A program made the translations under genes and the position numbers. Positions 9,957 through 12,800 of a stretch of DNA of 64,000 bases are shown piece by piece (position 1 is the stretch's first letter; each line of letters starts with the position of its first letter). The notes below the pieces were generated by a model. It did no database searches. It was not told the origin of the DNA and saw only the letters and a program-made list of their open reading frames with translations. This DNA comes from the human T2T-CHM13v2.0 reference genome, Homo sapiens. Location of the stretch: NCBI RefSeq assembly GCF_009914755.1, contig NC_060929.1; one strand, given 5' to 3'.

Positions 9957-10762
9957 TGAAAAGATGCAGAGAAAGCATCTGACAAAATCCAACACCTATT
10001 CATAATAAACCCTGAACAAACTAGGAATATAAAGGAACTTCCTCAAACTAACATTGAGGAACTGATGTCCTACATATGGAAAAAAGACTGAATGCTATCA
10101 CCCTAAGACTAGGAACTAAGCAAGGACATATCCTCTAGCCACTTCTATTCAACATTGTACTGGAAATCCTAGAGAAAAAAATAATAACAGGCACACAGAT
10201 TGGAAAGGAAATAATAAAACTGTCTTTTTGATAGCTGGCATGATTATTTATAATTATTTCAATGTAAGGAATCTACAAAAAAGTAAAACAGAAAACAACA
10301 ACCTACCAAACTAATAAATGAGTTTGGCAAGGTCATATGATTCAAAGTCAATGTACAAAAATCAATTGTATTGCCATGTTCTAAGAACAAATAACTGGAA
10401 ATTATAATTCAAAAGTCAATGCAATTTACAATAGCAACCAAAAAACTGGAAATAATTGGGAATAAATTTAACAAACTATGTAAAAGATCTGTACAATGAA
10501 AACTATAAAATGTTGCTGACAAACATTAAAGACATCCCACATACATGAAGAGATGTACTATGTTTATGGATCAGAAGATCCCATACTATTTAAAGATGTT
10601 AATTATCCTCAAGTTAATCTATAGATTTGATACCATTCCAGTAAAAATCCTAGTAAGCCTTTTTGTAGAAACTGGCATGCTTATTCTAAAATTTAAATGA
10701 AAATACAAAATAACTAGTACAACTCAAATAATTTTTTACATTTTTAATTTTTTTTTTTTTTA

Positions 10763-11667
10763 ATAGAGAAAGAAAAGTGGGCCCAGGGAACCGGCGTTCA
10801 GCATATGGAGGACCCACGCCGGCACCGGTCTCTGAGTTCCCTCAGTATTTATTCATTAGTATCTCTACCATATCGGAGAGGGGGACAACAGGGAGACAAT
10901 GGAGAGTGGCAGGACAACAGGGTAATAGTGGGGAGAGGGTCAGCAGGAAAACGTGAACAAACATCTCTACATCATAAACAAGGTAAAGAAAAAGGTGCTG
11001 TGCTTTTAATGTGCACATACATAAACATCTCAATGCTTTAAAGAGCACTATTGCCTATTGCCGCCAGCATGTCTCACCTCCAGCCCTAAGGCGGTTTTCT
11101 CCTATCTCCAGTAGATGGAATATACAATCGGGTTTTACACCCAGACATTCTATTGCCCAGGGACGAGCAGGAGACAGATGCCTTCCTCTTATCTCAACTG
11201 CAAAGAGGCCTTCCTCTTTTACTAATCCTCCTCAGCACAGACCCTTTACGGGTGTCGGGCTGGGGAACGGTCAGGTCTTTCCCTTCCCACGAGGCCATAT
11301 TTCAGATTACCACATGGGGAGAAACCTTGGACAATACCTGGCTTTCCTAGGCAGAGGTCCCTGCAGCCTTCCACAGTGTTTTGTGTCCCCGGGTACTTGA
11401 GATTAGGGAGTGGTGATGACTTTTAACAAGCATGCTGCCTTCAAGCATTTGTTTAACAAAGCACATCCTGCATAGCCCTAAATCCACTAAACCTTGAGTC
11501 GTCACAGCACGTGTTTCTGCCAGCACAGGGTTAAGGGTAGGGTTACAGATTAACAGCATCTCGAGGCAAAATAATTTTTCTTAGTACAGAACAAAATGGA
11601 GTCTCTTATGTCTACTTCTTTCTACATAGACACAGTAACAGTCTGATCTCTCTTTCTCTTCCCCACA
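10763..11667 (-). promoter_or_regulatory. HML-2 3' LTR (older LTR5A/B-like) U3+R, ending at the polyadenylation site, no U5
   Basis: Begins TGTGGGGAAGAGAAAGAGAGATCAGACTG right after the PPT AAAAAGAAAAGGGGGAAA (11685-11668). AATAAA at 10853-10848. Ends TTTCTTTCTCTAT then poly(A). Confidence 0.93.
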
Positions 11668-11704
11668 TTTCCCCCTTTTCTTTTTGACAAAACCACCATT
11701 GTCA

Positions 11705-12023
11705 TCATGGCTTGTCCTCGATGGTCGCTGTCTCTTTGGAGCTGCTAGGTACACCTGCACACACCGTTGATACAATCATCAAAGCTGCAAACAGCATGTT
11801 CTCTGAAGTTTGTGTCACCTTTGTGTTCTCTAGGCTTTTTTTTTTTAGCTAACTCTGTCAGCTTCTTTAATTGTGCCCAAGTCGGTGGCTCTGCCTTCTT
11901 GGTGGATGGCAACTTCATCTGTTCTGACATCACCATTCTATTCATCTTGTGAGTCGATGGTGCTCAACTGCGGTGTCTCCATCTCCATGGAGGTGCTTTT
12001 CTTTGCATCTCTGATGGGTTCAT
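11705..12023 (-). pseudogene. rec: Disabled Rec reading frame
   Basis: [58 protein letters not shown], then a frameshift in an A11 run (11836-11846), then ...[42 protein letters not shown]. Matches the Rec layout; premature TGA at 11964-11966. Confidence 0.93.
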
Positions 12024-12129
12024 TGTACAACTTCAAATATCGCAAGGCTGACTGTAGACATACTCGGGAATCTCTCGTTAACTTGTCCTCAGTGACGACG
12101 CTTGAGCGTACCTTCACCCTAGAGAAAAG

Positions 12130-12147
12130 CACCCACGTTGGGCACCA
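12130..12147 (-). other. tRNA-Lys primer binding site
   Basis: TGGTGCCCAACGTGGGTG, 2 nt after the U5 terminal CA; close to the complement of the tRNA-Lys1,2 3' end. Confidence 0.9.
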
Positions 12148-12800
12148 AATGAAGGGGTGGCCAGCCCCTCCACACCTGTGGGCATTTCTCATCAGGTGAA
12201 ATGAAAGACATGAGGAAAGAAAGAGACACAAAGTATAGAGAAAGAAAAGTGGGCCCAGGGGACCGGCGCTCAGCATACAGAGGACCCGCGCTGGCCACAT
12301 TTTTAATTTTTAAAGGAATTTTTCAAATTTCAAAATAAATTTTGAGAAAAAAATTGGAGGACTTAAAGCCATCTGATTTCAGTACTTAAACTATCATAAC
12401 CAATATGATGTGATACTGGCTTAAAGAAATACCTAAGTTAATGGTACAGAATAGCACTGAAAATACACTTGTGATCAACTGATTTTCAACAAATGTACAA
12501 ATGCACAATTAGTAGGGAAAAAGTGGTGTCTTTAAAAAAGAGAACAAGAAGAACTAGACATCCACCTTTTATAGTGTAAGATAAGCATATAATGAAATTA
12601 TATAAAAATTCATTCAAAATGTATCATAGATTTAAATATAAGAGTAGAAAGTATAAAACTCCCAGAAGAAAATATATGAGGAAATATTTGTGACTTAGAG
12701 TTAAATTCTAATAAGACACAAAAGCCATAAAACAAAAAACCAAAAATAAGAAAACTGCCTTTCACTAAAGTAAAAACTTTTGTTTTTCAAAAAACCGTTA

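What the first reader, a model, noticed from the sequence alone, without database searches (positions are those of the whole stretch)
10738..12311. Processed pseudogene of the doubly spliced HERV-K(HML-2) rec mRNA, mobilised in trans by L1
Seen in sequence: this is neither a provirus nor a solo LTR. It has the architecture of an mRNA: R-U5-PBS-leader, exon 2, exon 3, PPT, U3-R, poly(A). gag-pro-pol is removed at CCTTGCG|ATATTTG and most of env at ACGGTG|TGTGCAGG. There is a 15-bp TSD whose right copy abuts TTTTT/AAA. Established: these junctions correspond to the HML-2 major donor/env acceptor and the type-2 rec donor/acceptor. Poly(A), a long TSD and TTTT/AA are hallmarks of L1 target-primed reverse transcription, whereas HML-2 integrase makes short TSDs of about 6 bp. 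Inference: an older type-2 provirus expressed spliced rec mRNA in germline or early embryo, and L1 captured it. Retroposed HERV mRNAs, including rec as I recall, are a known class, so novelty of this specific locus is unverified. Repeat annotation would likely split it into unrelated LTR5 and HERVK-int fragments.
Basis: partly seen in the sequence, partly recalled or inferred. Interest (0 to 1): 0.9.

Follow-up and report, generated by a model that had tools for sequence, protein, structure and literature searches.

The report
Known HERV-K rec mRNA retrocopy (ERVK-31)
This is a dead, L1-made DNA copy of a fully spliced mRNA of the endogenous retrovirus HERV-K, already published in 2015 as locus ERVK-31, and today it mostly serves as a last exon of the non-coding RNA gene NR2F1-AS1.

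Summary
On the minus strand, 12296 to 10763 reads R-U5-PBS-leader | env/rec exon 2 | exon 3-PPT-U3-R. A poly(A) tail follows, and an exact 15-nt target-site duplication (10738-10752, 12297-12311) flanks the element. Both internal gaps fall exactly where a type-2 provirus has GT...AG. Exon 2 matches Pfam HERV-K_REC (E 4e-20). The 5' end has no U3 and the 3' end has no U5, so L1, not retroviral integrase, made it.

The locus is already in print. Schmitt et al. 2015 (Mob DNA 6:4, PMC4351823; passages read) describe it as ERVK-31 at 5q15. [quoted passage not shown] Its sister ERVK-30 (2q32.1) came up in my own genome search.

There are two small additions. The published PCR amplicon lies wholly inside an annotated NR2F1-AS1 exon, which probably explains the "unknown promoter". 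The two retrocopies also start within 1-3 nt of each other, near a mapped HML-2 start site, so they look full length rather than 5'-truncated by about 250 bp.

Verdict: already known, low interest.

The parts
12297..12311 (-). Target-site duplication, copy at the element's 5' end (sense AAAAATTAAAAATGT). It is preceded in sense by TTT, giving TTT|AAAAA, the L1 endonuclease type of site.
12235..12296 (-). 5' R copy. The element begins here with no U3 upstream. The first base G (12296) is not matched in the 3' R copy.
   Evidence: (D1: 61 nt, 90%)
12150..12234 (-). U5
   Evidence: alignment to proviral 5' LTRs
12133..12147 (-). Primer-binding site TGGTGCCCAACGTGG. The assignment to tRNA-Lys is recalled, not tested.
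   Evidence: the same motif follows the chr6 5' LTR
12041..12132 (-). Leader up to the major splice donor. It contains the acceptor-like ttttctctag|GG at 12119-12120 that starts the annotated NR2F1-AS1 exon.
   Evidence: exon coordinates from the hub annotation in the finding
11762..12040 (-). Exon 2 (env acceptor to rec donor). ATG at 12021-12023, TGA stop at codon 20 (11964-11966), a 3-nt deletion, and an A-run 4 nt longer than in the chr3 provirus (frameshift).
11668..11761 (-). Start of exon 3: end of env / second rec coding exon and the polypurine tract (11668-11685).
10825..11667 (-). U3 of the 3' LTR, starting TGTGGGG at 11667. AATAAA lies at 10848-10853. It overlaps the RefSeq 'enhancer' 10808-11309 of the hub annotation.
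10763..10824 (-). 3' R copy, ending at the polyadenylation site ...CTCTAT
10753..10762 (-). Poly(A) tail (T plus 9 A, continuous with the AAAAA of the TSD)
10738..10752 (-). Target-site duplication, copy at the element's 3' end
10729..12118 (-). Exon of alternative NR2F1-AS1 transcripts (hub annotation). It begins after the leader AG and ends 14 nt past an ATTAAA (10743-10748) that lies inside the TSD.
   Evidence: hub annotation in the finding; sequence context

Best explanation
The element is an L1-made processed pseudogene (retrocopy) of a doubly spliced, polyadenylated rec mRNA of a type-2 HERV-K(HML-2) provirus. It is the published locus ERVK-31 at 5q15. Shown: the architecture, the exact intron removal, the TSD, the poly(A) tail, and the broken Rec frame. 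Inferred: the mRNA was made in the germ line of an early ape ancestor. L1 endonuclease nicked TTT|AAAAA, the T-rich end primed on the poly(A) tail, and the whole mRNA was reverse-transcribed up to or near its cap. The copy cannot make Rec because of a stop at codon 20 and a later frameshift. It also has no promoter of its own upstream. What it does now, by inference from the annotation, is passive. It lies in sense orientation inside NR2F1-AS1, and its leader AG and A-rich 3' end are used as a terminal exon of some NR2F1-AS1 isoforms. That use would account for the 'rec' cDNAs reported from this locus in many normal tissues.
For: Structure: R-U5-PBS-leader | exon 2 | exon 3-PPT-U3-R-poly(A), flanked by an exact 15-nt repeat.

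Splice sites: in the chr3 type-2 provirus the four break points read CCTTACA|gtaagc, cactag|ACATTTG, AATGGTG|gtaagt and tgttag|TCTGCAG. In 10 of 10 further proviral loci (L003-L012) exon 2 is followed by GT.

Identity of exon 2: the 43 residues after the stop match Pfam PF15695 HERV-K_REC with E 4.3e-20 and 72 bits against a cut-off of 27.5. Translation shows the stop at codon 20.

Publication: PMC4351823 (passages read) describes a 1.5-kb locus at 5q15, hg18 chr5:92818136-92819668 (1533 nt; here 12296-10763 is 1534 nt). It gives TSD TTAAAAATGT, a poly(A) tail, rec-type junctions, a stop 20 triplets in, a frameshift about 63 triplets in, and a position inside an NR2F1-AS1 intron. It names the locus ERVK-31.

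Sister locus: ERVK-30 on chr2 was found independently and carries the published TSD AATCTGAATTCTT.

Host exon: the paper's primers match 12003-12023 (0 mismatches) and 11444-11463 (1 mismatch). The 580-bp amplicon therefore lies inside the annotated exon 10729-12118.
Against: Nothing contradicts the retrocopy reading. Four limits apply. First, the empty site in Old World monkeys was not tested here and rests on the paper. Second, the paper calls the copy about 250 bp 5'-truncated, which my mapping of the 5' end does not support (see the full report). Third, the NR2F1-AS1 exon is taken from the hub's annotation, and I saw no transcript data. Unspliced NR2F1-AS1 pre-mRNA or another start site could equally give the published amplicon. 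Fourth, identity with the hg18 interval rests on matching features, not on a coordinate lift-over.
Confidence: 0.97

Rival explanations
1. A provirus that lost gag-pro-pol and most of env through two deletions after integration.
For: Deleted HML-2 proviruses are common. The chr1 locus has an env deletion between exon 2 and exon 3 (the matches lie only about 455 nt apart).
Against: Both gaps fall exactly at GT...AG. The 5' LTR lacks all of U3 and the 3' LTR lacks all of U5. A poly(A) tail sits exactly at the R end, and the TSD is 10-15 nt.
Confidence: 0.01
2. A spliced rec RNA that was packaged, reverse-transcribed by the retroviral enzyme and inserted by integrase, as proposed for ERVK-17 at 10q24.2 in PMC3590776.
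For: PMC3590776 (section read) proposes such a route for the 10q24.2 locus, so it is an accepted possibility for HML-2.
Against: That route rebuilds two complete LTRs, leaves no poly(A) tail and makes a short TSD (about 5-6 bp; recalled). Here the ends are R-U5 and U3-R-poly(A) with a 10-15-nt TSD at a TTT|AAAAA site.
Confidence: 0.01
3. ERVK-31 is a second-generation copy of ERVK-30 (or the reverse), or a segmental duplicate of it, rather than an independent capture of a proviral mRNA.
For: The two share almost the same 5' end, the same poly(A) site with an unusual T before the A's, and the U5 variant ACTTTGTGTCTCTT.
Against: Flanks and TSDs differ, so it is not a segmental duplication. A retrocopy has no U3 upstream, so a transcript starting exactly at its first base is unlikely. 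The shared variants are equally explained by one source provirus or one lineage. The exon-2 A-run variant is also present in the chr1 and chr19 proviruses (4 of 12 rows).
Confidence: 0.03

Closest known systems
ERVK-31 (5q15), Schmitt et al. 2015, Mob DNA 6:4 (PMC4351823)
   Same: It is this locus. Band, host intron (NR2F1-AS1), length, TSD core TTAAAAATGT, rec-type junctions, stop at triplet 20 and frameshift near triplet 63 all agree.
   Different: Only in description. The paper gives a 10-nt TSD, whereas up to 15 nt match exactly. It states an approximately 250-bp 5' truncation, whereas the 5' end maps to about nt 818 of the LTR, near reported start sites. It leaves the promoter unknown, whereas current annotation has the element as an NR2F1-AS1 exon.
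ERVK-30 (2q32.1), Schmitt et al. 2013, Genome Biol Evol 5:307 (PMC3590776)
   Same: It has the same architecture and junction 1. The 5' end agrees within 1-3 nt and the poly(A) site is the same. Identity is 92% over aligned columns, with K2P 0.087.
   Different: It has a different chromosome, flanks and TSD. It has 28-nt and 19-nt gaps in U3 relative to ERVK-31. Its junction 2 region did not appear among the matches that span the junction. It keeps a longer open frame according to the paper.
HERV-W processed pseudogenes made by L1 (Pavlicek et al. 2002, Genome Res 12:391; seen only as a reference, otherwise recalled)
   Same: Retroviral RNA copied by L1, giving R-U5...U3-R-poly(A) with long TSDs.
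   Different: Those are mostly copies of unspliced genomic RNA of another HERV group (recalled). This one is a doubly spliced accessory-gene mRNA of HML-2.

Membership tests
L1-mediated processed pseudogene (retrocopy) | Introns removed exactly at the parent gene's splice sites | tested here: met
   Both gaps end at GT...AG in the chr3 type-2 provirus.
L1-mediated processed pseudogene (retrocopy) | Poly(A) tail at the 3' end, downstream of a polyadenylation signal | tested here: met
   T plus 9 to 14 A at 10762-10753(-10748). AATAAA lies at 10853-10848, 85 nt upstream.
L1-mediated processed pseudogene (retrocopy) | Target-site duplication of roughly 7-20 nt at an A/T-rich TT|AAAA-like site | tested here: met
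   Exact 15-nt repeat with target TTT|AAAAA. The size range and site consensus are recalled.
L1-mediated processed pseudogene (retrocopy) | No parental promoter carried along (here: no U3 at the 5' end) | tested here: met
   The element starts in R at 12296. Upstream is the TSD and unrelated A/T-rich DNA.
L1-mediated processed pseudogene (retrocopy) | Empty site with one TSD copy in an outgroup species | not testable with these tools
   No primate genomes are on hand. PMC4351823 reports the locus missing in rhesus and baboon and present in apes.
HERV-K(HML-2) type-2 rec mRNA | Exon 2 runs from the env acceptor to the rec donor, which lies in the stretch that type-1 proviruses lack | tested here: met
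   Exon 2 aligns end to end with 10 proviral loci that have this stretch. The location of the donor in the 292-bp stretch is stated in PMC4351823.
HERV-K(HML-2) type-2 rec mRNA | Sequence match to the Rec family | tested here: met
   PF15695 HERV-K_REC, E 4.3e-20, 72 bits, cut-off 27.5.
HERV-K(HML-2) type-2 rec mRNA | Open Rec reading frame | tested here: not met
   Stop at codon 20, plus a 3-nt deletion and a 4-nt longer A-run than in the chr3 provirus. It is a pseudogene of rec, not a rec gene.
Provirus or solo LTR inserted by retroviral integrase | Complete U3-R-U5 LTR(s) ending TG...CA with a short TSD and no poly(A) | tested here: not met
   The 5' end has only R-U5, the 3' end has only U3-R plus poly(A), and the TSD is 10-15 nt.

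The most novel reading that the evidence does not exclude
Two refinements of the published account may hold. (1) ERVK-30 and ERVK-31 are full-length cap-to-tail copies. Their nearly identical 5' ends (about nt 817-819 in the LTR numbering of PMC4379556) would then record the real transcription start of an ancient HML-2 provirus and define R as about 62 nt. (2) The widely detected 'rec' transcripts from 5q15, strongest in brain, would then be NR2F1-AS1 lncRNA isoforms or pre-mRNA. These would use the retroviral leader's AG and an ATTAAA created by the L1 insertion, and would not be retroviral expression.
Probability: 0.6. Interest if true: 0.25.

Novelty: already known. Interest (0 to 1): 0.12.

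Why it matters
The biology is not new. The practical value is for interpreting data. Studies that count HERV-K 'rec' or 'HML-2' RNA in normal or diseased brain can pick up this locus, which cannot encode Rec and is probably read as part of NR2F1-AS1. The coincident 5' ends of the two retrocopies also give a natural record of where ancient HML-2 transcripts began, a point on which the papers I read give two positions (793 and 826).

Tried and rejected
1. I considered that both retrocopies came from a source with a frameshifted rec, since both share an odd A-run (AAAAAAAAGCC). I rejected this. The chr1 and chr19 proviruses carry the same variant with different A counts, and chr19 has the in-frame length, so the run is a lineage trait that slipped independently.

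2. I tested whether the leader AG used by the NR2F1-AS1 exon is the 'position 1018' acceptor named for the 22q11.23 locus in PMC4379556. In the chr22 LTR that I fetched the homologous AG gives position 998, not 1018, so I make no such claim.

3. I tried to assign the LTR to a subfamily (LTR5A, LTR5B or LTR5Hs) and dropped it because no repeat library is on hand. The chr22 LTR that is nearest (89.4%) carries the motif numbering that PMC4379556 gives for its '22q11.23 LTR Hs', yet it differs in R from the chr6 LTR.

4. The bacterial promoter and terminator scan is not applicable to a human locus and I ignored it.

5. Rfam found 0 matches at gathering scores in 10500-12500.

6. I searched for a third locus spanning either junction. 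Among 40 scored of 76 candidates, junction 1 was spanned only by this locus and chr2. Among 40 scored of 78 candidates, junction 2 was spanned only by this locus. Unscored candidates remain unexamined.

7. Earlier findings of this scan were not open. The paper of Fuchs et al. 2011 is not held.

Full report
**What is in the sequence**

- TSD AAAAATTAAAAATGT lies at 12311-12297.
- The element begins at 12296 inside the LTR's R region, with no U3 before it.
- R runs 12296-12235, followed by U5 (to 12150), the primer-binding site TGGTGCCCAACGTGG (12147-12133) and the leader to 12041.
- A block of env/rec coding sequence follows (12040-11762).
- Next come the end of env with the polypurine tract (11761-11668), then U3 (from TGTGGGG at 11667) and R (10824-10763).
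- The LTR stops at ...CTCTAT, without U5. After it come T plus nine A's (10762-10753) and the second TSD copy (10752-10738).

The 15-nt repeat is exact (D4). Among 62426 positions in the window it is the only case of a 15-mer repeated at that spacing. The composition-based chance of such a match is about 2e-8.

The two R copies form a 61-nt direct repeat at 90% identity (D1). Because the TSD begins with AAAAA, the boundary between tail and TSD is ambiguous: the TSD is 10-15 nt and the tail 9-14 nt. In sense orientation the target reads TTT|AAAAA, the kind of site that L1 endonuclease cuts (consensus recalled).

**Are the gaps introns?**

I searched the window's own genome with the 5' 607 nt of the element. 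I then fetched two partial stretches of a type-2 provirus on chr3 and aligned them. The four break points in the provirus read as follows:
- CCTTACA|gtaagc (major donor)
- cactag|ACATTTG (env acceptor)
- AATGGTG|gtaagt (rec donor)
- tgttag|TCTGCAG (rec acceptor)

The window has CCTTGCG|ATATTTG and ACGGTG|TGTGCAGG. Both gaps are therefore exact GT...AG introns. In 10 of 10 other proviral loci taken, exon 2 is followed by GT.

The 43 residues after the internal stop match Pfam HERV-K_REC (E 4.3e-20, 72 bits, cut-off 27.5). The frame has a TGA at codon 20, a 3-nt deletion, and an A-run 4 nt longer than in the chr3 provirus. No Rec protein can be made.

**It is already published**

- A search for 'HML-2' and '5q15' led to Schmitt et al. 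2015, Mob DNA 6:4 (PMC4351823; I read the passages shown).
[quoted passage not shown] That interval is 1533 nt, against 1534 nt here from 12296 to 10763.
- It reports TSD TTAAAAATGT, a poly(A) tail, and boundaries that coincide with the rec splice sites.
- It also reports a stop 20 triplets in, a frameshift about 63 triplets in, and a position in a roughly 57-kb intron of NR2F1-AS1.
- The locus is present in chimpanzee, gorilla, orangutan and gibbon, and absent in rhesus and baboon.
- HGNC named it ERVK-31. cDNAs from it were found in 13 of the tissues examined, with 89 of 101 clones in brain total RNA.
- A whole-word search for 'ERVK-31' finds only this paper.
- The first such locus, ERVK-30 at 2q32.1, is in Schmitt et al. 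2013 (PMC3590776; section 16 read). My genome search found it independently as the only other place matching across the junctions (query 6-607, 90%). Its flanks carry the published TSD AATCTGAATTCTT.

**Rivals**

- *Deletion of a provirus after integration* is excluded by the exact splice-site ends, the missing 5' U3 and 3' U5, and the tail.
- *Integrase-mediated insertion of a spliced RNA*, proposed for ERVK-17 in PMC3590776, would give two whole LTRs and no tail.
- *A segmental duplicate of ERVK-30* is excluded by different flanks and TSDs.
- *A second-generation copy of ERVK-30* is unlikely, because a retrocopy has no promoter placed to restart at its own first base.

**Addition 1: the 5' end**

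The paper calls the copy about 250 bp 5'-truncated. In my alignment the two retrocopies begin within 1-3 nt of each other.

I used as anchors the motif positions printed in Bhardwaj et al. 2015 (PMC4379556, legend read): AATAAATA at 790, CTCAGA at 807 and CTCCATATGCTG at 832. These fit the chr22 LTR that I fetched exactly. On that numbering, position 12296 corresponds to about nt 818.

That paper gives 793 as the canonical start and 826 as the start seen by RNA-seq. The retrocopy 5' end lies between them. Two random L1 truncations of a 1.5-kb RNA would rarely fall within 3 nt of each other (of the order of 0.5%; my estimate). I therefore read both as full-length or nearly so, with R about 62 nt. 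This is inference. I could not read Fuchs et al. 2011.

**Addition 2: who transcribes it**

The paper leaves the promoter 'hitherto unknown'. The hub's RefSeq table lists an exon of alternative NR2F1-AS1 transcripts at 10729-12118 on the same strand.
- That exon starts right after ttttctctag at 12120-12119 in the retroviral leader.
- It ends 14 nt past an ATTAAA (10748-10743) that lies inside the TSD.
- The paper's primers match 12003-12023 and 11444-11463. Their 580-bp product, 'ca. 580 bp' in the paper, lies wholly inside that exon.

The published 'rec' signal from 5q15 is thus compatible with NR2F1-AS1 isoforms or unspliced NR2F1-AS1 RNA, and probably comes from them. I saw no transcript data, so this remains an inference. 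A search for 'NR2F1-AS1' with 'HERV-K' finds only the 2015 paper.

**Relatives and age**

- ERVK-31 and ERVK-30 differ at 118 of 1460 aligned sites, giving K2P 0.087, or 0.062 without CpG sites, and by 15 indel events.
- If both left similar sources at about the same time, that gives roughly 14-43 million years, depending on the rate assumed. This is compatible with the published presence in gibbon and absence in rhesus.
- U3-R is nearest to LTRs on chr22 (89.4% over 911) and chr1 (89.1% over 907).
- It is further from chr2 (85.8%, gaps counted), chr3 (85.3% and 84.8%, over 769 only), chr6 (82.6% and 82.7%) and chr19 (77.0%).
- Exon 2 is nearest to chr2, chr1 and chr19 (91.4%, 91.1%, 90.4%), and these four share an A-run variant (4 of 12 rows).
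- I did not assign an LTR subfamily.

**Verdict**

The locus is already known and named. Interest is low. The two refinements above are modest and need transcript and primate data that I could not reach.

Noticed in passing
window 10762 and L015:2157 (chr2): Both retrocopies have a T between ...CTCTAT and the A-tail (CTCTAT-T-AAAA). Their own 5' R-U5 copies and the 4 proviral LTR copies with this motif (chr10, chr6 twice, chr22) read CTCTAT-ACTTTG. Poly(A) polymerase adds only A, so the T was probably templated. It may mark one common source provirus whose 3' LTR differed from its 5' LTR, but this is unexplained.
   Followed up: partly
window 11176-11218 and 10883-10938: ERVK-31 has two short internal tandem repeats in U3 (D5 and D2). 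ERVK-30 lacks 28 nt and 19 nt at these two places. The 28-nt stretch contains TTGCAGTTGAGA, one of the 'enhancer boxes' listed in PMC4379556, so the chr2 copy lacks that motif.
   Followed up: partly
window 10808-11309: The hub annotation lists a RefSeq 'enhancer' here, lying entirely within U3-R of the retrocopy's LTR. NCBI's repeat masking covers only 11061-11486 of the 1.5-kb element, so most of it is unmasked.
   Followed up: no
L013 and L014 (chr3 provirus): In both LTRs of the chr3 provirus the alignment to the element stops at window 10906 and resumes at 12190. Only 12 nt lie between these points in L013. That provirus therefore seems to lack about 175 nt covering the polyadenylation signal, R and the start of U5.
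   Followed up: no
PMC11233923: An ALS RNA-seq study lists a HERV-K locus at 5q15 (ERV_3255463) among those upregulated in 'high HERV-K' patients. If it is ERVK-31, the signal could reflect NR2F1-AS1 expression. The coordinates are in a supplement that I could not open.
   Followed up: partly
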